This document shows positions 6,817 through 63,342 of a stretch of DNA of 64,000 bases, in pieces. The stretch spans positions 3,657 to 67,656 of the forward strand of contig JAUSHL010000038.1 in assembly GCA_030648645.1 (NCBI GenBank). The letters run 5' to 3'. Below the pieces are notes generated by a model. The model was not told where the DNA came from, did no database searches, and saw nothing but the letters and a program-made list of their open reading frames with translations. How positions within the stretch are numbered: position 1 is the stretch's first letter; each line of letters starts with the position of its first letter. This DNA is from Candidatus Daviesbacteria bacterium (lineage in GTDB: Bacteria; Patescibacteriota; Microgenomatia; Daviesbacterales; UBA10151). Both the position numbers and the translations under genes were made by a program.

Positions 6817-7124
6817 ATAGAGCCTGAACTACTTTTTGTAATTAATAAAATAGTAGTAGTATTTATAGGCAGTGTTGATAAGTGTATAAATAGGGTATAT
6901 TTATGAGTAATTGATTGGTGGATAAGCATAGAATCATTTTACAGCTTCAACGAACAACAAACAACAGTCTGTTTACTCTCGAGCTTTTGTCTTATTTTCG
7001 TGTGTAAAAAGTATAGTCAACTTGGGGATAAGTTAGTGGATAACTTCATGTGTAATGTGGAAAACTCTGGAAGAATGAAGAATGAAGAATGAAGAATGAA
7101 GAATTAAGAATTAAGAATTAAGAA
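6808..7124. promoter_or_regulatory. dnaA-dnaN intergenic region with a cluster of DnaA-box-like 9-mers; candidate oriC segment
   Basis: TTGTCCACA (6808-6816), TGTTGATAA (6873-6881, reverse of TTATCAACA), GTGGATAAG (~6919), GGGATAAG (~7025), TGGATAAC (~7037); AT-rich; heptamer tandem repeat at 7071-7127. Confidence 0.6.
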
Positions 7125-7127
7125 TTA
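7071..7127. repeat. 7-nt tandem repeat (AAGAATG x3 then AAGAATT x4) abutting dnaA stop codon
   Basis: Directly visible: gaagaatgaagaatgaagaatgaagaattaagaattaagaattaagaatta. Confidence 0.9.
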
Positions 7128-8459: not shown

Positions 8460-8647
8460 ATGTTATATCCAAAATTCTTATTTTGGATTCAAGCCATTTA
8501 ATGAGAATTATGCATCCGAGTTAAATTGGCTTATCCACATCCCAGATTCTAGTGTATAAGTTATCCACATTGAAAGATGGAGGAAGTATAAATAACTAGA
8601 TCAATTTTTATATTTAAAGATAATAATTTTTGTGATACTGTAAATAT
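8460..8647. promoter_or_regulatory. dnaA upstream region with two perfect DnaA boxes; candidate oriC segment / dnaA autoregulation
   Basis: TTATCCACA at 8531-8539 and 8561-8569. Confidence 0.65.
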
Positions 8648-9298
8648 ATGACAAATAATGATTTAGTTTATGGATTTTTAGACGAGTCTCCTAATTTACA
8701 GGATAAATTTGCTTTCTTTTCAGTAGTTATTATATTAAGCACTAACCCAGATGAGAAAAGTTATAGATCAATTTTTAAAAAAACTCGCAAGAATGTTCTT
8801 AAAAAGAAACAGAAAGAAATCCCTGAATTAAAGTTTGCCAATTCTACTCCTCAAGTAAGAATTAAAATACTGAAGGCCATTGGTAAAAGATCTATTAAAA
8901 TATCTGCTTATATTTTGGATAAAGCAGGAAGACGTATACCAGATACGCCTGAAAATTATGGTATTGTGGCTGGTTTTGCGATTAGTGAGGTATTAAAGAA
9001 ATACCCTGTTATTGTTTTAACTTTTGATAAAAAATATACCAAAGTTAAAGATCAAGAAGAAGTGGAGAGAGTAACATTAAAAGTTGTAGCTAAAGTTTTA
9101 AAGAAAGGTGTATTACAGTTTAAGGAGCATGGTGATAGCAAAGCAAACAGTATACTTCAAATGGCAGATTTTGTAGCTGGGGCAGTAAGTTATAAATACA
9201 ATTTGAATGATAAGAGCTACTGGGAGTTGATAAAGGATTTAATTGAACAGGAAAATAAGGAATCATGGATAGATATTAAAGCAATTTATAAGCAATAA
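8648..9298 (+). CDS. DUF3800-like protein (accessory cassette gene)
   Basis: N-terminal VYGFLDESPN resembles the Y-x-DESG signature of DUF3800; bracketed by repeat modules. Confidence 0.3.
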   Translation: MTNNDLVYGFLDESPNLQDKFAFFSVVIILSTNPDEKSYRSIFKKTRKNVLKKKQKEIPELKFANSTPQVRIKILKAIGKRSIKISAYILDKAGRRIPDTPENYGIVAGFAISEVLKKYPVIVLTFDKKYTKVKDQEEVERVTLKVVAKVLKKGVLQFKEHGDSKANSILQMADFVAGAVSYKYNLNDKSYWELIKDLIEQENKESWIDIKAIYKQ

Positions 9299-9485
9299 AA
9301 AAGAATAGTCAATCCCTGGGCTCCGATTCTCACCGCCTTTTTCGAGGGTAAACCCCGATGGGTCTACTTTGCACGGAATAAGACCGCTATTGCTGGACTA
9401 GAGATCCCAGGACTTACTCGACTATTCTTGATTAAGATTGTACCAAATTTTCACCAATTTTTCAAGGCCCAGATTTTAAAATAAC

Positions 9486-9722
9486 TCAAGCAAAGGAAGG
9501 AAGTATAAGCTTATTTAGTTTCACTAAATATCTTGAACCCAAAATAAGTATTTTGGGTATAATCTAATTCAACTCAAGCTTGTAAAAATTCGTTGAATAT
9601 CTTGAATTCAAAATGAAGCATTTTGAATATAAACCAATTTAACTCGTCCACCAGTGGCGGACTCATTAAATAGTTTGAACCAAAAATTTGCAAATTTTTG
9701 GTATAAATAACTAGATCAATTT
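9486..9722. repeat. ~235-bp direct repeat copy 1 (three tandem -35/palindrome/-10-like modules plus a GC hairpin), left flank of the HEPN/MNT cassette
   Basis: Near-identical to 10586-10812; contains TTGAAC-ccaaaatNNNattttgg-gTATAAT style units. Confidence 0.85.
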
Positions 9723-9736
9723 TTGAGTTCTGGGAG

Positions 9737-10093
9737 TTATTGGATTTTATCTTTCACAAAGCTTGTAATTTCTTTAGCAAACTTATAAGCTTCTTCTGAT
9801 TTTTCCTTAGTAAAATGAATAAATTCTGAAAGATCTGGGTAGCGTGAAGGAATGTAATAGGTGTTAAGAGCAACACACTCGTTTCTTAAACTCTCAAAAG
9901 ACTGGTCACTTTTAATACATTCTTCAAGTAGTGCTCTTAAATCGTGAATTTTCTTGATGTCTTTTTCTTGACTAATCAAATAAGCTTTTAGAGCTTTTTC
10001 CACTGCTTGCTGGGATGTAAAACAAGCTCCATACCAAATTTTTCCTTCCAGACTATTTTTGTAACTATTCAGAGTTTCCCAGTAGACTGTCAT
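9737..10093 (-). CDS. HEPN domain protein (toxin component of HEPN/MNT pair)
   Basis: C-terminal YYIPSRYPD motif characteristic of HEPN proteins partnered with minimal nucleotidyltransferases; 118 aa. Confidence 0.6.
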   Translation of the reverse strand: MTVYWETLNSYKNSLEGKIWYGACFTSQQAVEKALKAYLISQEKDIKKIHDLRALLEECIKSDQSFESLRNECVALNTYYIPSRYPDLSEFIHFTKEKSEEAYKFAKEITSFVKDKIQ

Positions 10094-10157
10094 CGCGAGG
10101 GTCGAAACTTCGACCCGTGGCGATCTAATTAGATTGCTTCGCTACGCTCGCAATGAC
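10088..10157. mobile_element. MITE-like GC-rich palindromic element (tgtcatcgcgagg...ctcgcaatgac)
   Basis: Terminal inverted repeats shared with >10 other copies in window; its terminal tgtcat supplies the ATG of the HEPN gene. Confidence 0.6.
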
Positions 10158-10261
10158 GATTTTATTGGGAAGAACTAATTAGTTACCTATTTTTTGTCCA
10201 GGAAAGATCATCTAATGCATAATTAAGCCATTTCTGAGATGACTTATTTATTGATTTACGA

Positions 10262-10558
10262 TTATCCATATACAATTTTACCAGTCTCGTTAGCCTCTTT
10301 TATAAAAAGATTATCTAGTTTTGCTTTTTCGAATTCCTGGGGTGTTAACACAAATATGTCAACAGCAGTTACTGTTCTTAGAAGTAGATGTACTTGTTTT
10401 TGTCTTTCAAGAAAAGGCAGGGTAGTTTTTTTTATAACGACAAGATCTACATCACTATCTGAGCTGGGTTTACCATTAGCATAAGATCCAAAAAGAATTA
10501 TTTTTTCCGGGTTATAAGGCATAATTTGATCAATAATGTCTTGAACTACTGAATTCAT
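10262..10558 (-). CDS. minimal nucleotidyltransferase (MNT, antitoxin component of HEPN/MNT pair)
   Basis: LFGSYANGKPSSDSDVDLVVI = GS...D.D nucleotidyltransferase motif; 98 aa. Confidence 0.7.
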   Translation of the reverse strand: MNSVVQDIIDQIMPYNPEKIILFGSYANGKPSSDSDVDLVVIKKTTLPFLERQKQVHLLLRTVTAVDIFVLTPQEFEKAKLDNLFIKEANETGKIVYG

Positions 10559-10585
10559 GAGTACATTGTATCATAAAAAAAAAGG

Positions 10586-10812
10586 GGGGGGAGGAAGTAT
10601 AAGCTTATTTAGTTTCACTAAATATCTTGAACCCAAAATTTTGGAGAATTTTAGGTATAAACCAATTTAACTCAATTTTACAACTCTCGTTAAATGGCTT
10701 GAATTCAAAATGAAGCATTTTGAATATAAACCAATTTAACTCGTCCACCAGTGGCGGACTCATTAAATAGTTTGAACCAAAAATTTGCAAATTTTTGGTA
10801 TAAATAACTAGA
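10586..10812. repeat. ~230-bp direct repeat copy 2, right flank of the HEPN/MNT cassette
   Basis: Near-identical to 9486-9722 (shared ggaagtataagcttatttagtttcactaaatatcttgaaccc... and ...tccaccagtggcggactcattaaatagtttgaaccaaaaatttgcaaatttttggtataaataactagatca). Confidence 0.85.
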
Positions 10813-10863
10813 TCAGTTTTTGGGGTTGATAAATTATGCCTCTGTGGTTTATACTTAATAAGT

Positions 10864-11001
10864 ATGCCAAAGCGCACATATCAACCAAAAAAATTAAAAA
10901 GATTGCGAAAACATGGATTCATCAAAAGAATGGAAACTCGTGATGGACAAAAAGTTTTAAAAAGAAGAAGAGCCAGGGGTAGAAAAAAGTTGACGGTATA
11001 G
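10864..11001 (+). CDS. rpmH: 50S ribosomal protein L34 (absent from the ORF track because it is only 45 aa)
   Basis: Translates to [45 protein letters not shown], a classic L34; precedes rnpA. Confidence 0.9.
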
Positions 11002-11003
11002 TC

Positions 11004-11114
11004 TGTCATTCTGAGCACTTCGATGTCATTGCGAGCGAAGTGAAGCAATCTCAGTGTAAACTCAGCGAAGAATCTCTTGAGATTGCTTCTCCGGCTTCGC
11101 CGGATCGCAATGAC
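11004..11114. mobile_element. MITE-like palindromic element between rpmH and rnpA
   Basis: gtcattgcgagcgaagtgaagcaatctc ... gagattgcttctccggcttcgccggatcgcaatgac forms one long imperfect palindrome. Confidence 0.6.
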
Positions 11115-12600: not shown

Positions 12601-12788
12601 GTCATTGCGATCCGGCGAAGCCGGAGTGGCAATCTTTTCTATCTACAATAAACTAATTTAACTCGTCCGCCAACCGGCGGACTCGTTAAATATTTTGAAC
12701 CCAAAATTTTGATTAAAAGTTGTAGACTGGAGTATTTTGGGTATAGATTGCTTCGTCGTCCGCCAGCTGGCGGACTCCTCGCAATGAC
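12601..12788. mobile_element. composite MITE-like element (gtcattgcga...ctcgcaatgac termini) enclosing a hairpin plus promoter-like module
   Basis: Termini match the MITE family; interior carries atttaactcgtccgccaaccggcggactcgttaaat hairpin and ttgaacccaaaatttt...attttgggtata unit. Confidence 0.5.
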
Positions 12789-12924
12789 AGTAATTTTTTC
12801 TGATTGACTGATCCTAGATTTTCCTTTATACCCACATTACTTTAATGGGTTCAAACTTTTTAATGAGACCGCCAGCTGGCGGTTGCAAAATCGAATTAAA
12901 ATAGTTTATACTTACCTTCATTGT

Positions 12925-14751: not shown

Positions 14752-14832
14752 TTCAATAGGTCGCAAGGTCTTGCGAACTTGAGAGCAAGTTCTTAAACCA
14801 AATTTAAAATTTAAAATTAAAAATTTAAAATT

Positions 14833-15246
14833 ATGAACAAGATTATTATAAATACAGATGGTGGGTCGAGAGGTAATCCGGGTCCAGGTGCTTGTGCTTT
14901 TGTGATCTCGGATGAACATGGAAAACAAATTGCCGGAGAAGGGAAGTTCTTGGGTGTTTGTACCAATAATGAAGCCGAATATGAAGCAGTTATTTTGGCC
15001 TTTGAGTGGGTGGTAAATAATTTGGCAAATAATTTACCTGAGAATATAGCGTTCAAAGCCGATTCGAAATTAGTGGTAGAGCAACTTTCTGGCAGGTTCA
15101 AAGTCAAAAATCCTCGTATTGCAGTGTTACATGGGCGGGTGAGGGTATTGGAAAAAAATATGTCTGAAATTACTTACACTTATATTCCGCGTGAGGAGAA
15201 TTATCAGGCAGACAATCTGGTAAATCAAATCCTGGATCTTCAGTAA
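14833..15246 (+). CDS. rnhA: ribonuclease HI
   Basis: NTDGGSRGNPGPGACAFVI...TNNEAEYEAVILAFEW... matches RNase H catalytic DEDD core. Confidence 0.85.
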   Translation: MNKIIINTDGGSRGNPGPGACAFVISDEHGKQIAGEGKFLGVCTNNEAEYEAVILAFEWVVNNLANNLPENIAFKADSKLVVEQLSGRFKVKNPRIAVLHGRVRVLEKNMSEITYTYIPREENYQADNLVNQILDLQ

Positions 15247-15368
15247 TTTTAAAATTAAAAATTTAAAATTTAAAATTGACGCAGTCTTATACCTTTCCTC
15301 TCTCTTGATTTGAGCATGAAATATTACTAAGATGTGTGAAGTGGGTGATATCTATCATCTAAATTAAT

Positions 15369-18185: not shown

Positions 18186-18317
18186 TGTCATCCCGGACTT
18201 CGTCCAAAGGACGATCAGCCTTTGGCTGATGATCCGGGATCCATGAATTTATTTATATAGATTCCTGCCCCTCGGTCCTGAGTCCCTCGGGATCGAAGGA
18301 CTTTCGCAGGAATGACA
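18186..18317. mobile_element. MITE-like element, subfamily 2 (tgtcatcccgg...caggaatgaca)
   Basis: First 60 bp nearly identical to the copy inside valS at 21304-21388. Confidence 0.6.
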
Positions 18318-18359: not shown

Positions 18360-19124
18360 ATGGATAGAATAGCTTTAAAAGCGGAAGAACGGGAAATATT
18401 GGGTAAAAAAGTTAAAAACCTTCGAAGTCAGGGTTTAATTCCGGCCCACGTTTTCGGAAAGGGACTTCAAACAGAGCATGTTACAGTAAGTGCTTTAGAA
18501 TTTAAAAAAGTTTATGACCAAGCCGGAGAAACCGGTTTGATTGATTTAAAGATCGGGGCAGAAAAAATCAGACCGGTGTTGATTCGGGGTGTTCAACTGG
18601 ATCCGGTCAGAGATAATCTTTTACACATTGATTTTTATCAAGTTAATTTATCGGTGAAAGTTAAAGTATTTGTACCGATTGAAATTATTGGGGAAGAGGC
18701 AGAAGCAGTACATACAGGGGAAGCTGTGGTTATTCAGCCAATGTCAGAGATTGAAGTTGAAGCTTTACCTGCCGATTTGCCGGAAAAAATTACTGTGGAT
18801 ATTACCTCACTTAAAGCAATTGATGATGCAATTTTAGTTTCCGGTTTATCTGTACCGGAGGGGGTGACAATTTTAGCCGAACCTGAAGCAGTGGTGGTAA
18901 AGCTTGATAGCGCAGTAACTGAAGAAATGAAGAGATTATTGGAAGAGCAAGCTGCTGAAGCTGCGGCGGCAGCTGCTGCACAGGCTCCTGCCGAAGGAGA
19001 ACCCGCCTCCGCTGAAGCTACGGCGGGCAAGGAAGCAGAGGGAGAAAAAGGTGCACAAGTTTCAACTGAGGCTGAACCCGCCTCCGCTGAAGCTACGGTG
19101 GGCAAGGAAGAAACTCCTGAATAA
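18360..19124 (+). CDS. rplY: 50S ribosomal protein L25 / general stress protein Ctc with Ala/Glu-rich C-terminal extension
   Basis: N-terminal L25 fold sequence ...REILGKKVKNLRSQGLIPAHVFGKG...; tail contains tandem EPASAEAT.GKE repeat. Confidence 0.85.
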   Translation: MDRIALKAEEREILGKKVKNLRSQGLIPAHVFGKGLQTEHVTVSALEFKKVYDQAGETGLIDLKIGAEKIRPVLIRGVQLDPVRDNLLHIDFYQVNLSVKVKVFVPIEIIGEEAEAVHTGEAVVIQPMSEIEVEALPADLPEKITVDITSLKAIDDAILVSGLSVPEGVTILAEPEAVVVKLDSAVTEEMKRLLEEQAAEAAAAAAAQAPAEGEPASAEATAGKEAEGEKGAQVSTEAEPASAEATVGKEETPE

Positions 19125-19223: not shown

Positions 19224-19751
19224 ATGGAAGGTTATAAAAAGTTGGCAAGCTATATTTTAGCTACAGTGATTCATGATTTAACTGCTATATTTGTTAAACG
19301 TTGGATAAGTCCATATTCCCGGACAACAGATCAAATGGAACAGGCAGCCAGATCCGGTAAACAAAATATTGCCGAAGGGTATACAGTCCAAAGCCTGGAG
19401 AGTTATATAAAACTTTGTGGAGTAGCTGAAGGCTCAATTAAAGAACTGGCAATTGATTTTGAAGATTTTTTAAGACAAAGAGGATATTCTATTTGGGATA
19501 AGAATGATGAAAGAGTTAGGGGATTTAGGGCTTTTAGGGCTGTTTGGAAAATACCTAATATCCCCAATACCCCAAATTTACCTAATAATCCTGAAGAAGC
19601 AGCAAATATGCTTTTAACTTTTTGCCAGATGGAGTCTTTTCTTCTTCATAGGCAAATTGAAGCTTTAAGAAATAAGTTTATTTCAGAGGGTGGTTTTAGA
19701 GAAAATTTATTCAAAGAAAGGTTGATAGAAAAGAAAAAGCAAATTAGATAG
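19224..19751 (+). CDS. four-helix-bundle protein of the 23S rRNA intervening-sequence-encoded family (TIGR02436-like), with C-terminal extension
   Basis: MEGYKKLASYILATVIHDLTAIFVKRW...EQAARSGKQNIAEGY resembles IVS-protein family; here free-standing. Confidence 0.45.
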   Translation: MEGYKKLASYILATVIHDLTAIFVKRWISPYSRTTDQMEQAARSGKQNIAEGYTVQSLESYIKLCGVAEGSIKELAIDFEDFLRQRGYSIWDKNDERVRGFRAFRAVWKIPNIPNTPNLPNNPEEAANMLLTFCQMESFLLHRQIEALRNKFISEGGFRENLFKERLIEKKKQIR

Positions 19752-21996
19752 TTTTTGGCCAATTTTTAGTCATAATAGATTCTCCTGGAGCTATCTTTTG
19801 CCATAACTCTTCTGATAAAAAAGGCATAAAAGGATGGAGGAGCTTTAAGCAGGTTTGGAAAACATATTCTAAAACTGGTTGAGCCTCAGCTCTTCTGTCT
19901 TTGCTTTTTTCAATATAAACATCAGCAAACTTATGCCAGATAAATTCATATAATGTTTCTGTGGCCAGATGAAGCTGGAAGGATTCTAAATTTTTGGTCA
20001 CATCATTAATAGTTTTGTTTAGTTCTTCTAGTATTTTTTTATTATCGATATGAGATTGCTTCTCCGGCAATTGCCGGATCGCAATGACGTCAGTGCCGAG
20101 CGTTGTTGAAATGTCATTGCGAGGAGCCGTAGGCGACGTGGCAATCTCTTTTGGTTTTAGTTCATAAATAAATCTGTAAATATTTTTTATCTTTGTCCCA
20201 AAGTTCCGGTAATTTCTGCATCTTTCATCTATTATTTGTCGGGAGGTTCTGCCATCACGGCCGGGGGCAGAGTAGGAATAGAGTGCCATGCGGGTAGCAT
20301 CTACTCCCCACAGTTGTACCAAATCATAAGGATTAATACCATTGCCTAATGATTTGGAAAACTTTTTTCCATCTATTCCTCTGAGTGTTCCATGGAAAAA
20401 CATGTTTTTAAAAGGAATACTATCCTTAAACCAAAGACTTAACATAATTTGGCGGGCAATCCAAAGGTATTTAATCTCCGGAGCAGTTAGTTCAAAATCC
20501 CAGGGGAAGTATTTTTCCAATTCATCAGATTTGTCAGGTTTACCCTCCGAAGCTTTAGCGGAGGAGGGCCAATTAAGTGTAGATAAGGGCCACATTCCGG
20601 AAGAAAACCAAGTGTCTAAAACTTTCTCTTCCTGCACCCAGTCTTCTCCAGGTGAGTCTTTTGATACTTGTATTTGATTCCCTTTGTACCATATCGGTAT
20701 ACGGTGTCCCCACCAAAGATTGCGTGAGATACACCAATCATGAATTCCACTTAGCCAGTCTCCCAGAATTTTGTCATAGTTTTTGGGTAAAAAGTTGATT
20801 TTATCTAAATTCTTTAAAGCTTTTTCTGCCAATGGTTTCATTTTGATAAACCATTCCTCGGAGATTAAAGGCTCAACAGTAGTTTTGCATCTTTCGCAAA
20901 CAGGGACTGAATGAGTATATTCTTCTACTTTTTCGATTGTTCCATTTTGTTCTAAAATTTCAGCAACTTTTGCTCGGGCCTCGGCAATTTTTAAACCCTG
21001 CAAATCTCCGGCTAGATCAGTCATTTTTCCTAATTTATCAATGGCATGTAAAATCGGAAGGTTATGATCTTTGCCGATGGCAAAGTCCAAAGGATCATGA
21101 CCGGGGGTAATTTTTAAAGCCCCAGTCCCAAAATCTTTTTCAACACGGGTATCTTCAAAAATTGGGATTTGATTATTGTTTAATGGATTGATGGCAAATT
21201 TTCCAATAAATTTGGCAAATTTTGGATGATTGGGAAAAACTGCAATACCGCAATCTGCATAAATTGTTTCCGGACGGGCGGTGGCAATAGTAATAAATTG
21301 ATCTGTCATCCCGTACTTCGTCCAAAAGACGATCAGCCTTTGGCTGATGATACGGGATCCATGGATTCCCGCTTCCGCGGGAATGACATTATTGTTTTGT
21401 ATTTGATATTTAACATAATAAAGCTTTTCTTTTCTTTCCTCATATTCCATTTCCACATCTTCAATGGCAGTGTTGCATTTGGGACACCACTCTACAATAT
21501 AAGCCCCTTTATAAATTAAATCTTGCTCCCACAAAGTTTTAAATTCTACAAAAGTGGCTTGTTGAATTTTGGGATCCAAGGTAAAAACTTCTCTTGACCA
21601 GTCAGCCGAAATACCTAAAAAAGTCCAGGTGTTATGAAAAGAATTATAAATTTTTTCTTTAAATTTCCAAGCCCTTTTCATCCAACTATCATATCCTAAC
21701 TTTTGTTTGGAAAGATTTTCTTTGGCCAGTTCTTTGTTAAAAGTTGATTCAAAAATAATGCCGGCATGATCAACCCCCGGTAATAATAAAACATCAAATC
21801 CTTGCATTCGTTTGAAACGGGCAACTGCATCCAAAATTGATTGTTGCATAGCATGACCGAGGTGCAAATCTCCATTGACATTGGGTGGAGGCATTAAAAG
21901 GGAATAAGGTTTTTTAGAAGACTTAGGATCTGCTTTAAACAGCCCCGCCTTTTCCCAGAAATCATACAATTTTTGTTCTGAAGTTTGTTCATCCAT
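19744..21996 (-). CDS. valS: valine--tRNA ligase (short form) carrying two in-frame repeat-element insertions
   Basis: HIGH-type motif PPPNVNGDLHLGHA, KMSKS-type KFSKSLGN, editing-domain region WCPKCNTAIEDVEME; insertions at 20052-20148 and 21304-21388. Confidence 0.8.
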   Translation of the reverse strand: MDEQTSEQKLYDFWEKAGLFKADPKSSKKPYSLLMPPPNVNGDLHLGHAMQQSILDAVARFKRMQGFDVLLLPGVDHAGIIFESTFNKELAKENLSKQKLGYDSWMKRAWKFKEKIYNSFHNTWTFLGISADWSREVFTLDPKIQQATFVEFKTLWEQDLIYKGAYIVEWCPKCNTAIEDVEMEYEERKEKLYYVKYQIQNNNVIPAEAGIHGSRIISQRLIVFWTKYGMTDQFITIATARPETIYADCGIAVFPNHPKFAKFIGKFAINPLNNNQIPIFEDTRVEKDFGTGALKITPGHDPLDFAIGKDHNLPILHAIDKLGKMTDLAGDLQGLKIAEARAKVAEILEQNGTIEKVEEYTHSVPVCERCKTTVEPLISEEWFIKMKPLAEKALKNLDKINFLPKNYDKILGDWLSGIHDWCISRNLWWGHRIPIWYKGNQIQVSKDSPGEDWVQEEKVLDTWFSSGMWPLSTLNWPSSAKASEGKPDKSDELEKYFPWDFELTAPEIKYLWIARQIMLSLWFKDSIPFKNMFFHGTLRGIDGKKFSKSLGNGINPYDLVQLWGVDATRMALYSYSAPGRDGRTSRQIIDERCRNYRNFGTKIKNIYRFIYELKPKEIATSPTAPRNDISTTLGTDVIAIRQLPEKQSHIDNKKILEELNKTINDVTKNLESFQLHLATETLYEFIWHKFADVYIEKSKDRRAEAQPVLEYVFQTCLKLLHPFMPFLSEELWQKIAPGESIMTKNWPKTI

Positions 21997-22028: not shown

Positions 22029-23348
22029 TCAATCAGAAAGAGAGATGTTAGGGTTTGCTTGTAGTTTGATTGGTTCAATTGGGTGATAGTTGTATAAAGC
22101 ACTAGTTGCAATATAGACAGCATTATCGGTACAAAGCTTGGGGGTAGGAATAGAAATTCGCACATTCATCTTTTTTTGCAAAGATTGTGCCACAAGCTTT
22201 TTGGCAAGAATTTGGTTGGCTGCAACTCCTCCTGCAACCAAAATTTGTTCAACTTTAAATGTTTGGACGGCTTTTAAAGTTTTGGCAACTAAAACATCGG
22301 TGATTGCTTCTTGGATAGAGGCTGAGAGGTTTGATATTTCTTGGGATTGCTTCTCCGGCAATTGCCGGATCGCAATGACATTGTTCTTCTTGTCATCGCG
22401 AGGAGTGTTAACGACGAAGCGATCTCTTGCAATATTTGAAATTGCAGTTTTTAAACCGGAAAAAGAAAAATCCCAGCCATAGGCTGGTCCGCCTTTGGCG
22501 GAAAAATTTCCATTCTCCAGCATTGGTCGGGGTAGTGGATATGCTTTGGGATTTCCTTTTTCTGCCATTTTTGAAATGGACGGACCTCCGGGATAAGGTA
22601 AACCCAGTAGCCTGGCAGATTTATCAAAACATTCACCGGCAGCATCGTCACGGGTTCCACCTAAATATTTATATTTACCATGATCTGTCATTAAAATTAA
22701 ATCTGTATGACCTCCTGAAACAAGAAGACCAATGGCGGGGAAGGTGGGTACTGTAAAATTGTCATTGCGAGGAAGGTCGATACTTCGACCCGGCGCGGCA
22801 ATCTTATTAATTGATTTGGCAGATTGTTTCGCGGAGTTTACGCTGAGATTGCTTCGCTCTGCTCGCAATGACGTCGAAGTGTTCGCAATGACAGGAGAAA
22901 TCCAATTTGCATAAAAATGACCCAGTAAGTGATTCACCGGTATTAATGGTTTATTCCAAACAGTTGCCAGAACTTTAGCAGTTTCTACTCCCACAAGGAG
23001 AGAACCAATTAGCCCCGGACCTTCGGTAACAGCAATGGCATCGATAGATTTTATTATCTCTTTATTGTCATGCTGAACTTGTTTCAGCATCTTGTCTGTG
23101 GATCCCGAAATAAATTCGGGATGACACTTTGCTTGAGTAAGTGCTTCCTGAATGACGGGAATAATGGATTTTAATTGTTCACGGGCTGCCTGTTCCGGGA
23201 TCACACCGCCGAATTTAGCTTGTAACTCAGCCGAGGATGCCACAATATTGGACAATATCGTTACTCGTTTCTCGTCACTCGCCACGATAGCACAAGCTGT
23301 CTCATCACAGGATGACTCAATTCCTAAAATGATACGGGGATTTTTCAT
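22029..23348 (-). CDS. tsaD: tRNA N6-adenosine threonylcarbamoyltransferase TsaD (Kae1/Gcp family) carrying two in-frame repeat-element insertions
   Basis: N-terminus ILGIESSCDETACAIV, HLLGHFYAN and LVSGGHT motifs; 439 aa vs ~340 typical; insertions at 22345-22436 and 22760-22893. Confidence 0.85.
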   Translation of the reverse strand: MKNPRIILGIESSCDETACAIVASDEKRVTILSNIVASSAELQAKFGGVIPEQAAREQLKSIIPVIQEALTQAKCHPEFISGSTDKMLKQVQHDNKEIIKSIDAIAVTEGPGLIGSLLVGVETAKVLATVWNKPLIPVNHLLGHFYANWISPVIANTSTSLRAERSNLSVNSAKQSAKSINKIAAPGRSIDLPRNDNFTVPTFPAIGLLVSGGHTDLILMTDHGKYKYLGGTRDDAAGECFDKSARLLGLPYPGGPSISKMAEKGNPKAYPLPRPMLENGNFSAKGGPAYGWDFSFSGLKTAISNIARDRFVVNTPRDDKKNNVIAIRQLPEKQSQEISNLSASIQEAITDVLVAKTLKAVQTFKVEQILVAGGVAANQILAKKLVAQSLQKKMNVRISIPTPKLCTDNAVYIATSALYNYHPIEPIKLQANPNISLSD

Positions 23349-23863: not shown

Positions 23864-24280
23864 TTAGGTAGAAATTTTAACAGAGTGGGCTTTTAACCAT
23901 TCGGATATTTGTTCCACTGAATAATTTTCATTTACTACTTTTCTTGTAAATTTGACTGCTTCTTTCCTTTTAATTTTTAAGGAATATTTATTATATTCAA
24001 GAAATAAAATAGCACAAAAAAGGGAAGTTCTTTTGTTTCCATCTAAAAAAGGATGGTTATTGATTATAGAATGAAATAAAGATGCACTTTTATCAAAAAT
24101 GGATTTATAAGCATCTTGAAATCCGATTGACATTTGAGGCCTACCTACAGAAGAACTTAATATATGTAAATCCCTTACACCATGAATGCCACCAAATTGA
24201 GACACCAATTCTTCATTGATAGCGATTATTTCTGCCTCAGAAAGATAGTGAATTATTATACTCTTGCCAGATCTTGCCAT
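23864..24280 (-). CDS. doc: Fic/Doc family toxin (death-on-curing)
   Basis: Fic motif HPFLDGNKRTSLF. Confidence 0.75.
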   Translation of the reverse strand: MARSGKSIIIHYLSEAEIIAINEELVSQFGGIHGVRDLHILSSSVGRPQMSIGFQDAYKSIFDKSASLFHSIINNHPFLDGNKRTSLFCAILFLEYNKYSLKIKRKEAVKFTRKVVNENYSVEQISEWLKAHSVKIST

Positions 24281-24495
24281 ACTCCTGCATATTTTTTAGA
24301 AATTTTTTTAATCAACTTTACTACTGTTGGGTCTATATCTGTTGGTTTTTTAGCCTTTTTCTCGTGCATCAAGAGCAATCCTTCATCGGTATTTTTCCAC
24401 TCAATAGTGGATCCATCTCTAATACTGAGTTGATGAGCATAAGCTTTTGGTACTGTTACTGCTAGAGAGTTGCCGTTTTTAAATACTTTTCTCAT
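24256..24495 (-). CDS. AbrB/MazE-fold antitoxin (Phd-like partner of Doc)
   Basis: SpoVT/AbrB-like N-terminus MRKVFKNGNSLAVTVPKAY; overlaps doc start. Confidence 0.6.
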   Translation of the reverse strand: MRKVFKNGNSLAVTVPKAYAHQLSIRDGSTIEWKNTDEGLLLMHEKKAKKPTDIDPTVVKLIKKISKKYAGVWQDLARV

Positions 24496-28243: not shown

Positions 28244-28322
28244 TGTCATTCCGAGTGCATCCGAGGAATCTTCCGTCTTAAGCGGGAAGATTGCCACGCT
28301 CACTATGTTCGCTCGCAATGAC
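28244..28322. mobile_element. MITE-like element (tgtcattccgag...ctcgcaatgac)
   Basis: Termini match the MITE family. Confidence 0.55.
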
Positions 28323-28627: not shown

Positions 28628-29038
28628 ATGATTATTGATAGTAATATTTTAATCTATGCAATTAACTCCGACTCTCCCAAAAACAAAAAAGCTCAGGAAT
28701 TTTTAAGAGAGAATTTAAAAAATTTAGAAGTTACTCATCAAAATATATTAGAAACTCTAAGAGTTTTAACCCATCCGAAATTTTCCAAAAAAATGAAATC
28801 ACAAGATGCTCTAGAATCAATTACAGGTATAATAAGAGTTGCCAGAATTATCCAGCCCAGATATGAAACCTATTATGTATTTTTGGAGTTACTAAAAAAA
28901 CACCAGTTTGGGGGAGATAAAATTTTTGATATATATCTTATAGCTACAGCTTTAAGTAATAATATTGAGACAATAGCTACAGATAATACAAAAGATTTTA
29001 TAAAATTCAAGGAGATCAAGACAATAAATCCTTTTTAG
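28628..29038 (+). CDS. vapC: PIN-domain ribonuclease toxin VapC
   Basis: MIIDSNILIYAIN... conserved acidic residues of PIN fold. Confidence 0.75.
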   Translation: MIIDSNILIYAINSDSPKNKKAQEFLRENLKNLEVTHQNILETLRVLTHPKFSKKMKSQDALESITGIIRVARIIQPRYETYYVFLELLKKHQFGGDKIFDIYLIATALSNNIETIATDNTKDFIKFKEIKTINPF

Positions 29039-30821: not shown

Positions 30822-31187
30822 TCAAGAATTAGTTTCTAGATGTGATTTATAATCATTCAGTCTATTAATGGCAGTTTTTATCTCTCTTGTATCAGTTTTT
30901 TGCTTCTTTTTTTGGAAAGCATGGAGCAATAAAAATTGTCGATTCACTACTGCTACATAAAAGATTCTAATATTGTCACTCCCAAGAATACGAAGTTCCC
31001 ATAAGGGTGTGCCTATTAATTTCTTTGAGTGGGGAGAACCAATTAAGGTACCAAGTTGTTTTAACAAATCCATAACACCTATGACTTTGGATTTAATTTT
31101 AGGATCAAGATTTTGGATAAATTCAAAAGCAGGGGAGCTACCTTGAGAAGTTTCGTAATAGATAATTTTCCATTTCTGATCCATCAA
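30822..31187 (-). CDS. RelE/ParE-superfamily toxin, HigB/phage Gp49-like, upstream of its antitoxin
   Basis: Size, position (toxin-first arrangement), weak similarity to HigB-like proteins. Confidence 0.5.
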   Translation of the reverse strand: MMDQKWKIIYYETSQGSSPAFEFIQNLDPKIKSKVIGVMDLLKQLGTLIGSPHSKKLIGTPLWELRILGSDNIRIFYVAVVNRQFLLLHAFQKKKQKTDTREIKTAINRLNDYKSHLETNS

Positions 31188-39554: not shown

Positions 39555-39704
39555 AGGTCATCCTGAGCGTAGTCGAAGGATTGATGACTTAATGGCAATA
39601 GTGGAGTGAGATTGCTTCTCCGCCAGTTGGCGGATCGCAATGACGCCAGCACTGAGTGTAGTTGAAGTGTCATTGCGAGGAGCCGAAGGCGACGTGGCAA
39701 TCTA
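39555..39704. mobile_element. MITE-like element immediately downstream of groES
   Basis: gaggtcatcctgagcg ... gagattgcttctccgccagttggcggatcgcaatgac ... gtcattgcgaggagccgaaggcgacgtggcaatct. Confidence 0.6.
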
Positions 39705-61262: not shown

Positions 61263-62173
61263 AAATATAATAACTTATAAACCGGATTATAAATTTTTAT
61301 AAAAGATCCGGGATATTCAATGACATTACCATGAAATCTTTTTTTGAACTCAGAAAAATTTTTCCATGATTTTCTCTCTTTCGGAAATCTTGGATCATAA
61401 ATTCCTTCAAAATCAAAAATAGGCAATTTTTTACTTTTGGCAAATTTAATACTTTCCCAAACCAATAAATAATTTGCTAAGGTTTCATAGCCTACTTTGG
61501 TAATACCTGTGTTCATATAAACAGCCCGATCTTCTAAAATTCCCAGCCAAACAGCTGCGACGGGTTGAGAAGATTGCTTCTCCGGCTTTCGCCGGATCGC
61601 AATGACATTATGATAGGCAAATAAAATATATGAAGAGTTTTTAAAAGCCATCATTTTTTTATGAAATTCGGAATGTCCCGGAATATAAAATTTTTTTAAA
61701 TGAGTTAAATTAGATAAAAGAGAATAAAATTTTTTAAATTGTAAATCACGGTCGCTATCTTTTAATGAAATTATTTTAATTTCTAAATTATTATTTTGCG
61801 CCTTTTTAATATTTCTTCTGGCATTTTCGGAAAATCCGGATAAAATTTTATTCTCTGATTTATTTATATCAATATAAATTGTTGAAGTGTGAGTGAGAGA
61901 GCTTTTCGATCGAACATATCCATTTTTTAAAACAGCTTCTTTATTAAAGTTATTTTTATCCGGTTCTAAAATTACAAATAAAGAATGATGCTTTTTGGCA
62001 AATTTATCAATTTCGGAAAATGATAAATTATTTTGAGGATGTTGAATTTTAATAACTGAATATTTTAAAAATGGTAAATTTCGAATAAAGACCCGAGAGT
62101 TTCCGATTTTTTCTACTTTCCAGCCAATTGAAGATAAATAATCTCCCCATTCTTTTGATTGTCTGATGTCCAT
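61241..62173 (-). CDS. FemAB-family peptidoglycan aminoacyltransferase-like protein carrying an in-frame repeat half-element
   Basis: FemAB-like N-terminus ...SKEWGDYLSSIGW...; VAIRRKPEKQSS encoded by MITE half-copy 61572-61616. Confidence 0.5.
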   Translation of the reverse strand: MDIRQSKEWGDYLSSIGWKVEKIGNSRVFIRNLPFLKYSVIKIQHPQNNLSFSEIDKFAKKHHSLFVILEPDKNNFNKEAVLKNGYVRSKSSLTHTSTIYIDINKSENKILSGFSENARRNIKKAQNNNLEIKIISLKDSDRDLQFKKFYSLLSNLTHLKKFYIPGHSEFHKKMMAFKNSSYILFAYHNVIAIRRKPEKQSSQPVAAVWLGILEDRAVYMNTGITKVGYETLANYLLVWESIKFAKSKKLPIFDFEGIYDPRFPKERKSWKNFSEFKKRFHGNVIEYPGSFIKIYNPVYKLLYLCSKILP

Positions 62174-62244: not shown

Positions 62245-63342
62245 TCAAACTTCGTTTATTAACCTAAGAAGTAATAATTTTAGTGGCATAAATTTTTCAA
62301 CTATATTAAATAAAATATAAATTGGCCAATTTAAAATTAAATCATAAGTTCCAATATATTCTATAAGTTCGGCACCCAACCCTCCTTTAAATTTAGTAAA
62401 TCCAAAATAAGAATCTTTTTCTCCTTTACTGAGATCTGCTGCTCCCCAAAGATCAAATTTTTTTAATCCCAATTTTTTACCCAATCTGATGGCATCCCAA
62501 GCCAATAAATTAGATGACATTACATTACGGTGTAATTCTGATGAGCCACCATAAGGATAATATAATGTATCTTTAAAATTTATTAACATCCAAGCGGTTA
62601 AAGGAATTTTTTCATAATAAGCAACTAATACTCTAACCATATTTTCTTTTTTCAGAGATTGCCAGACTGATTTGTGATAACTCATATTGTGTCCATGATA
62701 GCCTTGTCGTTTGGTAGTATCGAAATATAATTTTATGTAATCTGCAAAAAGCTGATCATCTGTGCCTTCTTTGATTATGACTTCATGTTTTTTTGCTACC
62801 TTGATGTTATATCTAAATTTTTGATGCATGTTTTGTAAAATTTCATCTTCGGATTTGGTTAAATCTAAAACATAATTGAATTTGGTAAAAAGTGGTTTAG
62901 GCGATGGTTTAAATTTTTTTGATATCAATGTGTTGTCATTGCGAGGAGCTCCGGCAGAGCCGGACGACGAAGCAATCTCTGTTTCAGATTGCTTCTCCGG
63001 CAATTGCCGGATCGCAATGACATCAGGTTCAATCTTAATGAAGGCACAATTATTTTCTTTGCCAATTTGTGTTAGGGCTTTGGCCAAATTTTTATCAGGA
63101 AATGGGCCTTTTGGTAAATATCCTACAAAATATTTTGTCAGAGGAATTTTATGAAAAGTAATTTGAAAAGCAGTTACTAATTGATTATTTTCAAAAAGAC
63201 CATATCTTTTTAATTTTGTATCCAAACTTTTTCTAAACTGCCCCCAAGCCCATGATTGCATGAGATGAGATACTGATTTATTGTAAATATTTTTTTCTTT
63301 TTCAGTAATTTCTCGCAAGTCCATAGCTGAATTATATATCAA
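62245..63342 (-). CDS. FemAB-family peptidoglycan aminoacyltransferase (FemX-like) carrying an in-frame repeat element
   Basis: ...HLMQSWAWGQFRKS...YLPKGPF... FemAB signature; insertion PDVIAIRQLPEKQSETEIASSSGSAGAPRNDNTLIS from 62934-63021. Confidence 0.6.
   Translation of the reverse strand: MIYNSAMDLREITEKEKNIYNKSVSHLMQSWAWGQFRKSLDTKLKRYGLFENNQLVTAFQITFHKIPLTKYFVGYLPKGPFPDKNLAKALTQIGKENNCAFIKIEPDVIAIRQLPEKQSETEIASSSGSAGAPRNDNTLISKKFKPSPKPLFTKFNYVLDLTKSEDEILQNMHQKFRYNIKVAKKHEVIIKEGTDDQLFADYIKLYFDTTKRQGYHGHNMSYHKSVWQSLKKENMVRVLVAYYEKIPLTAWMLINFKDTLYYPYGGSSELHRNVMSSNLLAWDAIRLGKKLGLKKFDLWGAADLSKGEKDSYFGFTKFKGGLGAELIEYIGTYDLILNWPIYILFNIVEKFMPLKLLLLRLINEV

What the first reader, a model, noticed from the sequence alone, without database searches (positions are those of the whole stretch)
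22345..22893. Two in-frame repeat insertions in tsaD, sharing the VIAIRQLPEKQS peptide with valS and the FemAB genes
TsaD here is 439 aa versus ~340 typical. The excess comes from copy 22345-22436 (encodes ...NNVIAIRQLPEKQSQEISN...) and copy 22760-22893 (encodes ...IANTSTSLRAERSNLSVNSAKQSAKSINKIAAPGRSIDLPRNDNFTV...). Both are clear members of the gtcattgcgag/ctcgcaatgac family. The opposite strand of these copies yields three spurious ORFs (22138-22482, 22427-22756, 22732-22914). An essential tRNA-modification enzyme carries ~75 extra residues of repeat-derived sequence.
Basis: seen in the sequence. Interest (0 to 1): 0.8.

Follow-up and report, generated by a model that had tools for sequence, protein, structure and literature searches.

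The report
Hairpin repeats inserted in-frame in tsaD
An essential tRNA-modification gene (tsaD) of an uncultured ultra-small bacterium carries four in-frame copies of short hairpin-forming DNA repeats that add about 100 amino acids in variable, low-confidence loop regions, a known kind of selfish-DNA insertion seen here in a new bacterial group and at unusually high load.

Summary
tsaD (22029-23348, minus strand) is an intact 439-aa ORF. It carries four repeat-derived in-frame inserts, not two: 22344-22425, 22473-22502, 22761-22892 and 23066-23126. Together they make 305 nt, about 102 aa. The remaining 337 codons are a normal-length TsaD.

The inserts are short palindromic REP-type repeats. 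Each has a [T/C]GTC tag, a stem that starts with AT, a variable apical hairpin and a short tail. They occur as single units or as head-to-head or tail-to-tail dimers. This is the architecture of the CGTC-tagged REP superfamily (Di Nocera 2013), which includes Rickettsia RPE-4/RPE-6 and is already known inside genes.

About 15 elements lie in the window. Eight are intragenic: tsaD 4, valS 2, FemAB 2. No transposase was found.

The closest TsaD relatives have empty loops. More distant ones carry REPs of the same or other families in the same loops. Identity is confined to the elements, while synonymous sites are saturated.

Verdict: a new member of a known kind, in Patescibacteria (CPR). One point stays unresolved: why the same sites are occupied again and again by near-identical elements.

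The parts
22029..23348 (-). tsaD coding sequence, 439 aa, intact
   Evidence: ORF list. Pfam TsaD 2.3e-76. NCBIfam TIGR03723 scores 338 bits against a cut-off of 296. AlphaFold model against E. coli TsaD 4ydu gives TM 0.92 normalised to the target.
22344..22425 (.). Insert at site 3 (aa ~308-335, ..DRFVVNTPRDD-KKNN-VIAIRQLPEKQS). It is a head-to-head REP dimer. One arm is 22344-22379, the spacer is 22380-22391, and the other arm is 22392-22425, an ATCGC/GCGAT stem variant.
Evidence: Folds with z = -3.2. Model pLDDT is about 63.
22473..22502 (.). Insert at site 4 (aa 283-292, SAKGGPAYGW). It is a 30-nt twin mini-hairpin, CCAGCC-ATA-GGCTGG plus TCCGCC-TTT-GGCGGA on the + strand.
   Evidence: Absent from 110 of 120 orthologs. 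30/30 nt identical in L003 and L154, with a compensatory variant in L002. The same twin hairpin lies inside the REP arms at 18187-18240 and 21305-21358. pLDDT is below 50 at aa 283-287.
22761..22892 (.). Insert at site 2 (aa 153-196, VIANTSTSLRAERSNLSVNSAKQSAKSINKIAAPGRSIDLPRND). It is a tail-to-tail REP dimer. One arm is 22761-22804, the spacer is 22805-22820, and a composite arm is 22821-22892 with a nested unit at 22846-22872.
   Evidence: The composite arm is 87% complementary to 11003-11069 (I1). Folds with z = -3.35. pLDDT is below 50 for aa 155-190. The loop is 4-5 aa in 28 of 120 orthologs.
23066..23126 (.). Insert at site 1 (aa 75-94, CHPEFISGSTDKMLKQVQHD). It is a tail-to-tail heterodimer of two other TGTC-tagged units, with ATGCTGAA and ATCCCGAA stems.
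   Evidence: Folds with z = -6.1. This site is 15 aa in 64 of 120 orthologs and 37 aa here. pLDDT is 62-69.
20053..20147 (.). Head-to-head REP dimer inside valS (aa 617-648, EIATSPTAPRND..VIAIRQLPEKQS)
   Evidence: (D8). valS is confirmed by NCBIfam (778 bits against a cut-off of 704).
21305..21387 (.). Tail-to-tail dimer inside valS (aa 204-231, VIPAEAGIHGSR..YGMT). One arm is the classic CGTC-1 form, TGTC-ATTCCCGC-GGAA-GCGGGAAT-CCA.
   Evidence: The peptide matches the R. conorii CGTC-1 peptide VIPAKAGI in PMC3733652 supplementary file 4.
61571..61606 (.). Single REP unit inside the FemAB-family ORF 61241-62173 (VIAIRRKPEKQS)
   Evidence: (D2).
62935..63021 (.). Tail-to-tail REP dimer inside the FemAB-family ORF 62245-63342 (VIAIRQLPEKQSETEIASSSGSAGAPRND)
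   Evidence: (z = -8.7).
10089..10157 (.). Intergenic tail-to-tail REP dimer. Its apical hairpin belongs to the same subfamily as the tsaD site-2 arm.
11003..11114 (.). Composite REP cluster, mostly intergenic. It has the same nested arm as tsaD site 2.
   Evidence: (I1, I9).
12601..12788 (.). Intergenic tail-to-tail REP pair with a 113-nt spacer that holds another repeat
18187..18316 (.). Intergenic tail-to-tail dimer of long TGTC-tagged units that contain the twin mini-hairpin
   Evidence: (D17).
28245..28322 (.). Intergenic tail-to-tail REP dimer
39557..39701 (.). Intergenic single unit plus a head-to-head dimer that is 89% identical to the valS dimer
   Evidence: (D8).
22138..22914 (+). 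Three antisense ORFs (22138-22482, 22427-22756, 22732-22914). They are kept open by the largely stop-free repeat sequence and are judged spurious.
   Evidence: They overlap a frame with strong TsaD homology. The repeat units are open in 2-5 of 6 frames.

Best explanation
The extra ~100 residues of this TsaD come from four in-frame insertions of short palindromic REP-type repeats. Each unit has a [T/C]GTC tag, a stem starting with AT, a variable apical hairpin and a short tail. Units occur singly or as head-to-head or tail-to-tail dimers.

These non-autonomous hairpin elements are scattered over the genome. Copies that land in genes survive only under three conditions: they keep the reading frame, they avoid the stop-containing frame, and they fall in permissive surface loops or domain linkers. 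There they are transcribed and translated as extra, largely disordered loops, and the TsaD catalytic core stays intact.

Shown:
- The repeat identity of all four segments.
- An intact ORF and a conserved core.
- Empty sites in the nearest relatives.
- Nucleotide identity that is limited to the elements.

Inferred:
- That the elements are, or recently were, mobile or copied. The enzyme responsible is unknown.
- That the inserts are translated and tolerated.
- That selection is the filter that restricts them to these loops.
For: Repeat identity:
- The motif occurs 20 times against 0.34 expected.
- The modular units, tags and tails are listed.
- All inserts fold as hairpins, with z from -3.2 to -8.7.
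- The inserts have 43-67% GC against 40% for the rest of the gene and 34% for the window.

Arithmetic: the four inserts total 305 nt, about 102 aa, which leaves 337 codons. Insert-free orthologs are 331-337 aa.

Core intact:
- Pfam, NCBIfam and PDB matches.
- The invariant residues are retained, including H140 and H144 of the conserved H-x3-H pair and D408.
- The AlphaFold model has mean pLDDT 82.7, with low confidence only in the inserts.
- Foldseek gives TM 0.92 against E. coli TsaD, normalised to the target.

Insertion, not ancestral sequence:
- The nearest relatives P0003, P0004 and P0006 have 5-aa loops at site 2.
- Site lengths range over 4-52, 10-51 and 13-62 aa in 120 orthologs.
- Bearers of the element are scattered over the tree.
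- The left arm is read as VIA, SLR or VIP in different orthologs.

Element-limited identity:
- Four-fold degenerate sites are 34-50% identical, which is saturated.
- The repeat termini are nevertheless invariant.
- A valS REP arm is 35/35 nt identical between L002 and L005, while its flanks are about 60% identical.
- The site-4 unit is 30/30 identical in three genomes.

Selection filter: 8 of 15 elements are intragenic although 83% of the window lies in ORFs of at least 120 aa (P = 0.007).

Precedent: intragenic CGTC-type REPs with the same peptide signatures (VIPAKAGI..AGMT..RGND) are known in tRNA synthetases and tRNA-modification enzymes of other bacteria (PMC3733652).
Against: There is no direct evidence of expression, translation of the inserts, or enzyme activity.

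No transposase or other mobilising gene was found in the window, and no target-site duplication is visible. Mobility is therefore inferred only from copy number and patchy distribution.

The same loops are occupied in many deeply diverged orthologs, sometimes at the identical codon boundary. Site 4 is the example: 10 of 120 orthologs in about 8 lineages. A pure model of random insertion plus selection explains this only if the insertion rate is very high.

Only one assembly of this organism exists, so polymorphism and sequencing errors could not be checked.
Confidence: 0.78

Rival explanations
1. The hairpins are kept at these positions because they act at the nucleic-acid level. They could be mRNA structures that affect stability, processing, attenuation or translation pausing at domain boundaries, or they could be protein-binding DNA sites. 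On this view the encoded peptide is a by-product.
For: Identity is confined to the elements across genes whose synonymous sites are saturated. The substitutions that do occur keep the stems paired: ATTGC/GCAAT becomes ATCGC/GCGAT, TCCGCC/GGCGGA becomes TCGTCC/GGACGA (which changes the peptide from SAKGG to SSKGR), and A>G gives a G.T pair. The left arm is read in different frames in different orthologs. The site-4 hairpin is followed by a T-run and resembles a terminator on the sense strand. L153 keeps the site-4 unit although its 21 kb hold no REP units.
Against: The same pattern is expected for young copies drawn from conserved master families of a selfish element. Both stem variants of the site-4 unit also exist elsewhere as repeat subfamilies. 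Different families and arrangements occupy the same loop. Most orthologs, including the nearest ones, lack the elements. The T-run after site 4 is dictated by the conserved DFSFSG codons.
Confidence: 0.13
2. The extra segments are old, vertically inherited, lineage-specific protein loops with a protein-level role, such as contacts with partner proteins or tRNA. Their similarity to the repeats would then be secondary.
For: The three main loops are expanded in most of the 120 related TsaD proteins. REP-like peptides recur at the same sites in distant orthologs. The left arms are read as V-I-x in 14 of 18 intragenic units, which could reflect selection on the peptide.
Against: The nearest relatives have empty loops. 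The loop peptides are not conserved, and the left arm is read in different frames. The same DNA units occur between genes and in unrelated genes. The segments are predicted with low confidence. The count includes orthologous sites and is not made of independent events.
Confidence: 0.05
3. The gene is not expressed as read. It could be a decaying pseudogene, or the inserts could be removed after transcription or translation in an intron-like or intein-like way.
For: Four insertions in one essential gene is a heavy load. One insert creates a terminator-like site.
Against: The ORF is intact, and all family-invariant residues are kept. The NCBIfam equivalog cut-off is passed. The inserts are 30-132 nt. 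From general knowledge, that is far below the size of group I or II introns and of inteins. No Rfam family matches them. The same kind of insert is seen in intact orthologs from independent assemblies.
Confidence: 0.03
4. The inserts are an assembly artefact: repeat-induced chimeric joins in a metagenome-assembled genome.
For: The contig comes from a MAG, and short repeats can mislead assemblers.
Against: Every insert keeps the frame. The flanking tsaD sequence is collinear with orthologs, and the tsaD-valS gene order is conserved. Equivalent inserts occur at the same sites in independent assemblies from NCBI, ENA and Logan. The units are shorter than typical reads.
Confidence: 0.01

Closest known systems
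CGTC-tagged REPs (Di Nocera, De Gregorio & Rocco 2013, PMC3733652). The class includes Rickettsia RPE-6 (CGTC-1), RPE-4 (CGTC-4) and Neisseria dRS3.
   Same: An unpaired CGTC or TGTC tag at one end. A stem that begins with AT. A short tail. Many dispersed copies. Head-to-head and tail-to-tail dimers with spacers. No associated transposase. Documented in-frame copies inside genes, including tRNA synthetases and tRNA-modifying enzymes. The valS arm TGTC-ATTCCCGC-GGAA-GCGGGAAT-CCA and its peptide VIPAEAGI match CGTC-1 (VIPAKAGI) directly.
   Different: The main family in tsaD (ATTGCGAG...GCAAT-CT) has a 5-bp basal stem, an internal loop and a variable apical hairpin, 25-47 nt in all. The described families have an 8-9 bp stem and a 4-5 nt loop. 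Its peptides (VIA..KQS, IA..PRND) are not found in the paper's supplementary files held as text. Tail-to-tail dimers outnumber head-to-head ones here, the reverse of the paper. The host is a Patescibacteria (CPR) genome, a group not covered in 2013. Four inserts in one 337-codon gene is an unusually high load.
Rickettsia palindromic elements, RPE-1 (Ogata et al. 2000 and 2002; recalled from my own knowledge, mentioned in PMC3733652 and PMC1779305)
   Same: Palindromic repeats are inserted in-frame in essential genes without destroying them. They are read mostly in one frame and are thought to sit on protein surfaces.
   Different: RPE-1 is a single unit of about 100-150 bp from one family in an obligate intracellular alphaproteobacterium. 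Here the inserts are modular units of 25-60 nt and their dimers, from several families. Sequence homology to RPE-1 was not tested.
REPINs and GTAG-type REPs mobilised by RAYT transposases (Bertels & Rainey 2011, recalled from my own knowledge; discussed in PMC3733652)
   Same: Two inverted REP units separated by a spacer form a larger hairpin. Families have conserved bases and evolve as populations of copies.
   Different: The GTAG head is absent. No RAYT (Y1 transposase) is present in the window. REPINs are essentially extragenic.
Bacterial MITEs inserted in genes (for example the Coxiella QMITEs, PMC5896051; review PMC10969869; titles and abstracts only)
   Same: Small non-autonomous palindromic elements that can add peptide segments to proteins.
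   Different: MITEs have terminal inverted repeats derived from an IS element and leave target-site duplications. No duplication and no parent IS were seen here.

Membership tests
CGTC-tagged REP superfamily (PMC3733652) | Unpaired terminal tag CGTC, often TGTC or CCTC, at one end of the unit | tested here: met
   All GC-rich units in the window are preceded by T or C before GTC, apart from a single unit at 39557-39581 that starts GGTC. In 182 units of the same family from other phyla, 159 have T or C there.
CGTC-tagged REP superfamily (PMC3733652) | The stem begins with complementary A-T residues at positions 1 and 2 | tested here: met
   ATTGC..GCAAT, ATCGC..GCGAT, ATTCC..GGAAT, ATCCC..GGGAT and ATGCT..AGCAT.
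CGTC-tagged REP superfamily (PMC3733652) | Stem of 8-9 bp with a loop of 4-5 nt | tested here: not met
   This is met only by the valS arm ATTCCCGC-GGAA-GCGGGAAT and by the site-1 arms, which have 8-bp stems and 5-nt loops. The main tsaD family has a 5-bp basal stem, an internal loop and a variable apical hairpin, 25-47 nt in total. It is therefore at best a new family of the superfamily.
CGTC-tagged REP superfamily (PMC3733652) | Short unpaired tail, consensus CCA | tested here: inconclusive
   The tail is CCA in the ATTCCC and ATCCCG units, and CT(C) in the ATTGCGAG family.
CGTC-tagged REP superfamily (PMC3733652) | Many dispersed copies, commonly as inverted dimers (head-to-head predominant in the paper) | tested here: met
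   About 15 elements in 64 kb. There are 3 head-to-head and about 8 tail-to-tail dimers. The predominance of tail-to-tail dimers differs from the paper.
CGTC-tagged REP superfamily (PMC3733652) | Intragenic copies give the characteristic peptides (VIPAKAGI, ..AGMT, ..RGND) | tested here: met
   valS has VIPAEAGI..YGMT. Other TsaD orthologs have VIPAKAGIY..SGMT at site 2. These were compared with supplementary file 4 of the paper. The tsaD units of the ATTGCGAG family give VIA..KQS and ..PRND, which were not found in the paper's supplementary files.
Rickettsia palindromic elements (RPE) | In-frame insertion in protein-coding genes that leaves the host protein's conserved core intact | tested here: met
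Rickettsia palindromic elements (RPE) | Sequence homology to the RPE-1 to RPE-8 consensus | not tested
   No RPE consensus sequences were available in the tools. The only link is the indirect CGTC-1 (= RPE-6) peptide match for the valS unit.
MITE | Target-site duplication flanking the element | tested here: not met
   The flanks of all elements were read, and no direct duplication was seen. The ATTTT on both sides of the site-4 unit is also present at empty sites.
MITE | A parent IS element with the same terminal inverted repeats | not testable with these tools
   No transposase domain was found in any ORF of at least 120 aa in the window. The rest of the genome is not available.
REPIN/RAYT system | GTAG head and a RAYT gene flanked by the repeats | tested here: not met
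   The heads are [T/C]GTC. No Y1 transposase is present in the window. A whole-genome check was not possible.
TsaD (t6A transferase subunit), for the host gene | Equivalog-level profile match and retention of family-invariant residues such as the conserved His pair and the TDN aspartate | tested here: met
   TIGR03723 scores 338 bits against a cut-off of 296. H140, H144 and D408 fall in nearly invariant or invariant columns. The Fe ligands His111 and His115 in E. coli are described in PMC4330362. Enzyme activity was not tested.

The most novel reading that the evidence does not exclude
The loops are not merely tolerant. On this reading they are persistent docking sites for an active hairpin-element system in Patescibacteria. 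Units would be inserted site-specifically, replaced, or homogenised against other copies. Alternatively, the hairpins have a selected RNA- or DNA-level role inside these mRNAs.

Either version would explain four observations:
- Near-identical units sit at identical codon boundaries in TsaD and ValS genes whose synonymous sites are saturated.
- Different families replace one another at the same site.
- Stem-preserving changes alter the encoded peptide.
- A genome without other REPs in the 21 kb examined still keeps the site-4 unit.
Probability: 0.22. Interest if true: 0.75.

Novelty: new member of a known kind. Interest (0 to 1): 0.45.

Why it matters
Practical consequences:
- About a quarter of an essential, universally conserved enzyme is repeat-derived here. 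Such inserts inflate protein lengths and create spurious antisense ORFs.
- They could be mistaken for lineage-specific domains in surveys of Patescibacteria (CPR) proteins. They can also disturb protein clustering and structure prediction.

Biological consequences:
- A REP class so far described mainly in Proteobacteria is abundant, and apparently recently active, in a tiny and streamlined genome with no obvious transposase nearby.
- The ATTGCGAG family is spread over many phyla, yet a sequence search of the literature found no description of it.
- These small genomes may be a good place to look for whatever propagates CGTC-type REPs, which remains an open question in PMC3733652.
- Repeated occupation of the same loops in TsaD and ValS offers a natural map of insertion-tolerant sites. 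It is also a test case for how selfish hairpins add new surface loops to old proteins.

Tried and rejected
- **Rfam.** A search of the whole window at gathering thresholds found only DUF3800-III RNA at 9302-9428 and nothing on the repeats.
- **Literature search by sequence.** Searching for the motif strings returned only unrelated primer hits.
- **Literature search by topic.** In the 12 top-ranked papers of a search combining CPR/Patescibacteria terms with REP, RPE or MITE terms, none contained a REP, RPE or MITE term.
- **Strain-level polymorphism.** The exact protein has one member on one contig, and the next relative is 66% identical. A metagenome scan with a 20-nt tsaD anchor found no contig from the same species. 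The exact protein is not on record in the contig index.
- **Transposase search.** Pfam scans of all ORFs of at least 120 aa found no Y1, RAYT or DDE transposase.
- **Target-site duplication or a common target motif.** None was seen in the flanks.
- **Intron or intein removal.** Rejected on size and on the lack of any RNA-family match.
- **A single ancient insertion at site 2.** This was considered, because five syntenic orthologs carry the same dimer type at the same codon position. It was judged unlikely as simple neutral descent. Four-fold sites are saturated while the repeat termini are invariant, the left arm is read in different frames, and the nearest relatives are empty.
- **Horizontal transfer of gene segments.** Rejected, because the identity stops at the element borders.
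- **Formal covariation test.** Not attempted. The units were selected by their pairing, so the test would be circular.
Full report
**1. The observation**

The ORF at 22029..23348 on the minus strand encodes 439 aa. It is TsaD by three tests:
- Pfam PF00814 at 2.3e-76.
- The NCBIfam equivalog TIGR03723, 338 bits against a cut-off of 296.
- phmmer hits to solved TsaD chains of 327-343 aa.

The PDB alignments break into blocks. They leave the query unaligned at about aa 79-95, 151-199 and 310-338, and they gap ten further residues within aa 279-292.

The motif GTCATTGCGAG, with up to one mismatch, occurs 20 times in the window against 0.34 expected. VIAIRQLPEKQS is exact in tsaD, in valS and in one FemAB ORF. 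The other FemAB ORF has VIAIRRKPEKQS. The three antisense ORFs exist.

**2. Four inserts, not two**

Comparison with orthologs and with the repeat termini defines four segments:
- Site 1: 23066-23126, CHPEFISGSTDKMLKQVQHD.
- Site 2: 22761-22892, 44 aa.
- Site 4: 22473-22502, SAKGGPAYGW.
- Site 3: 22344-22425, ..DRFVVNTPRDDKKNNVIAIRQLPEKQS.

Together the segments are 305 nt, about 102 aa. The remaining 1015 nt are 337 codons plus the stop. That equals the length of insert-free orthologs (331-337 aa) and of E. coli TsaD. The inserts have 43-67% GC, against 40% for the rest of the gene and 34% for the window.

**3. Anatomy of the repeats**

The basic unit has four parts: a tag [T/C]GTC, a stem that begins with AT (ATTGC..GCAAT in the main family), a variable apical hairpin, and a short tail (CT or CCA).

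Units occur in three arrangements:
- Alone, as at 61571-61606.
- As tail-to-tail dimers, as at tsaD sites 1 and 2, 62935-63021 and 10089-10157.
- As head-to-head dimers, as at tsaD site 3, valS 20053-20147 and 39611-39701.

One arm of site 2 carries a nested unit, and the same composite recurs at 11003-11069 (I1).

Site 4 is a 30-nt twin mini-hairpin. It also forms the apical part of the long units at 18187-18240 and 21305-21358. The motif CAGCCNNNGGCTG occurs 3 times against 0.01 expected.

All inserts fold better than shuffled controls, with z from -3.2 to -8.7 for the intragenic ones. Stem variants are compensatory, for example ATTGC/GCAAT becoming ATCGC/GCGAT.

I count about 15 elements in the window. 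Eight are inside genes: tsaD 4, valS 2, FemAB 2. ORFs of at least 120 aa cover 83% of the window, so genes are under-populated (binomial P = 0.007).

The units are open in 2-5 of 6 frames. One frame of the reverse arm ends in TGA.

In 18 intragenic units from the window and eight related loci, the forward arm is read as V-I-x in 14. The reverse arm is mostly read as ..RND. These counts include orthologous sites, so they are suggestive only.

No ORF of at least 120 aa in the window has a transposase domain. No target-site duplication is visible.

**4. Consequences for the protein**

All columns that are invariant in 120 related TsaD sequences are kept. These include H140 and H144 of the conserved H-x3-H pair and D408 (the E. 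coli Fe ligands His111 and His115 are described in PMC4330362).

The AlphaFold model has mean pLDDT 82.7. Low confidence is confined to the inserts:
- Below 50 at aa 155-190 and 283-287.
- 62-69 at aa 80-100.
- About 63 at aa 310-330.

Foldseek superposes the model on E. coli TsaD with TM 0.92 normalised to the target. The extra residues therefore lie outside the core.

By alignment to Salmonella and E. coli TsaD, the four sites map as follows:
- Site 1 lies between helix alpha1 and the following strand.
- Site 2 lies just after the helix that carries the conserved His pair, in the connection to the second domain.
- Site 4 lies before the DFSFSG motif.
- Site 3 lies at about residues 221-236.

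Site 1 is adjacent to the helices that form the TsaB interface (V85, L89, S97, F100 in E. coli; PMC4330362). Any effect on partner binding is inference only.

**5. Comparative evidence**

The exact protein is known from one NCBI MAG contig, and the next relative is 66% identical. Names attached to the homologs place the organism in Patescibacteria (CPR).

Ten orthologous loci were fetched, and where the contigs extend far enough tsaD is followed, directly or after one small ORF, by valS.

In 120 orthologs the loop lengths vary widely:
- Site 1: 10-51 aa.
- Site 2: 4-52 aa.
- Site 3: 13-62 aa.

Site 4 is occupied in only 10 of 120.

The nearest relatives, P0003, P0004 and P0006, have a 5-aa site 2. 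More distant orthologs carry, in the same loop, several different kinds of insert:
- The same dimer type (P0005, P0007, P0009, P0035, P0055, P0057, P0075, P0104, P0106).
- A single arm (P0118).
- Units of the VIPAKAGI..SGMT family (P0027, P0078, P0082).
- Another palindrome, HLPGVKAHLEGV.
- Palindromes built of inverted heptamer repeats.

On a neighbour-joining tree the bearers are scattered.

At the DNA level, the site-2 dimer starts and ends at the same place in six genomes. Its left arm is read as VIA, SLR or VIP, while the right arm is always ..PRND. The conserved feature is therefore the DNA, not the peptide.

Four-fold degenerate sites between these genes are 34-50% identical, which is saturated. 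Against that background:
- The repeat termini are invariant.
- By my count on alignment A3, the window and L001 site-2 elements are about 87% identical.
- In valS, REPs occupy the same two sites (aa ~200 and ~615) in the orthologs, but with different families and arrangements.
- One valS arm is 35/35 nt identical between L002 and L005 although its flanks are about 60% identical.
- The site-4 unit is 30/30 identical in the window, L003 and L154.
- In L153 the site-4 unit has one change that gives a G.T pair and one loop change.
- In L002 it has a double compensatory change that alters the peptide.
- In all these genomes the neighbouring conserved codons differ at synonymous positions.

**6. Mechanism**

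The best-supported account is that these are REP-type hairpin repeats that are, or recently were, copied around the genome. Selection removes most genic copies. It leaves those that keep the frame and sit in permissive loops or linkers, where they are translated as flexible surface segments. I put this at about 0.78.

What is not explained by random insertion plus selection alone is the repeated occupation of identical sites by near-identical units across saturated divergence. Three refinements remain open:
- Site-specific insertion.
- Replacement or conversion of resident units by other copies.
- Nucleic-acid-level constraint on old units, with many precise losses.

A selected RNA- or DNA-level role is the main rival (0.13). 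Three other rivals are unlikely for the reasons given under each: old protein-level loops, a pseudogene or post-transcriptional removal, and assembly error.

**7. Relation to known systems**

Di Nocera et al. 2013 (PMC3733652) describe two REP superfamilies tagged by GTAG or CGTC. For the CGTC class they report:
- The tag is often TGTC.
- Stems start with AT, and tails are short.
- Dimers are frequent.
- No dedicated transposase is known.
- Rickettsia RPE-4, RPE-6 and Neisseria dRS3 are members.
- Intragenic copies encode 20-30 aa as dimers and 43-82 aa as clusters, including in tRNA synthetases and tRNA-modifying enzymes.

Their supplementary table lists the peptides VIPAKAGI..IPASAGMT and DSRFRGND. 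These are the signatures of the valS insert at 21305-21387 and of several TsaD orthologs.

The main family in tsaD (ATTGCGAG..GCAAT) shares the tag, the AT start and the dimer habit. It differs in having a bipartite stem with a variable apical hairpin, and its peptides are not found in the paper's supplementary files.

A scan of species-representative genomes found this unit in many phyla: Chloroflexota, Planctomycetota, Bacteroidota including Pedobacter, Proteobacteria, Firmicutes, Nitrospirota and Patescibacteria. The same tag and tail preferences hold there, with T or C before GTC in 159 of 182 units.

I file the inserts as members of the CGTC/TGTC-tagged REP class in the broad sense. The main family is a probable new family of that class, because the stem and loop dimensions that define the four described families are not met.

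**8. Novelty and score**

In-frame REP/RPE insertions are known, so this is a new member of a known kind. Four points are new here:
- The host group. I found no paper linking CPR with REP, RPE or MITE elements, although absence from the searchable library is weak evidence.
- The load: four inserts, about 23% of the protein.
- The clade-wide reuse of the same loops by different families.
- The identity limited to the elements across saturated divergence.

Interest is 0.45.

**9. Limits**

- Expression, translation and activity were not tested.
- Only one assembly of this organism exists.
- The tree is a simple neighbour-joining tree with long terminal branches.
- The counts of elements rest on my own pattern definition.
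- Claims about RPE-1 and REPINs beyond what PMC3733652 states are from my own knowledge.

Noticed in passing
window 22473-22487 with the following T-run (sense strand, minus): On the tsaD sense strand, the second site-4 hairpin (CCAGCCTATGGCTGG) is followed by GATTTTTCTTTTT, the codons for DFSFSG. This gives an intrinsic-terminator-like site in the middle of the gene. The same arrangement is present in the four other orthologs that carry this unit and have DNA available.
   Followed up: partly
window 19744-21996 (valS); L001, L002, L004, L005, L006, L127: valS carries REP inserts at two sites (aa ~204-231 and ~617-648). The orthologous valS genes carry REPs of different families and arrangements at the same two sites. 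One arm is 35/35 nt identical between two valS genes whose flanks are about 60% identical.
   Followed up: yes
window 5170-8459 and 8460-11000: dnaN (5170-6270) and dnaA (7125-8459) mark the replication-origin region. They are followed by about 2.5 kb with few ORFs, packed with several repeat families (D4, D5, D7, D9, D10). A DUF3800-III RNA (9302-9428, minus) lies next to a DUF3800 gene (8648-9298).
   Followed up: no
window 9495-9725, 10589-10822, 12667-12716, 12846-12914, 44369-44443, 50498-50584, 53879-53966: A second dispersed intergenic repeat of the form ..CTCGTTAAATATCTTGAACCCAAAAT..ATTTTGGGTATA.., often in inverted pairs. It contains TTGAAC and TATAAT-like hexamers, so it may be a recurrent promoter cassette.
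   Followed up: no
window 5103-5170, 6286-6354, 14793-14834, 15242-15279: AT-rich arrays of TTTAAAATTTTAAA-type units lie at gene ends. They are mutually complementary at up to 95% (I2, I7, I8, I13).
   Followed up: no
window 18957-19106: A 75-nt tandem duplication (75% identical) encodes an Ala/Glu-rich C-terminal extension of the ribosomal protein L25 gene (18360-19124) (D18).
   Followed up: no
window 45332-45385: Overlapping intergenic palindromic units, TGTCATATCACACCC..GGGTGTGATATGACA, carry the same TGTCAT head as the REPs but have an unrelated stem.
   Followed up: no
L127 tsaD site 3; L001 tsaD site 3; L149 and L129 tsaD site 2: Other CPR TsaD genes carry, in the same loops, palindromes made of short tandem repeats of about seven nucleotides in inverted orientation, for example CAGTTAT/CAGTTGT facing ACAGAAA. 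This is a different class of hairpin insert from the REPs.
   Followed up: partly
L012 (Chloroflexus sp. MAG) 1372-1956: Five copies of the ATTGCGAG unit lie within 600 bp. Three of them are direct repeats spaced about 50 nt apart, so the family can also form tandem clusters.
   Followed up: no
window 23864-24280 and 24256-24495; 28628-29038; 30822-31187: Small toxin-antitoxin-like genes (Fic/DOC with an upstream small ORF, PIN, Gp49-like) flank the tsaD region. The orthologous loci have MazE-Fic pairs immediately upstream of tsaD.
   Followed up: no
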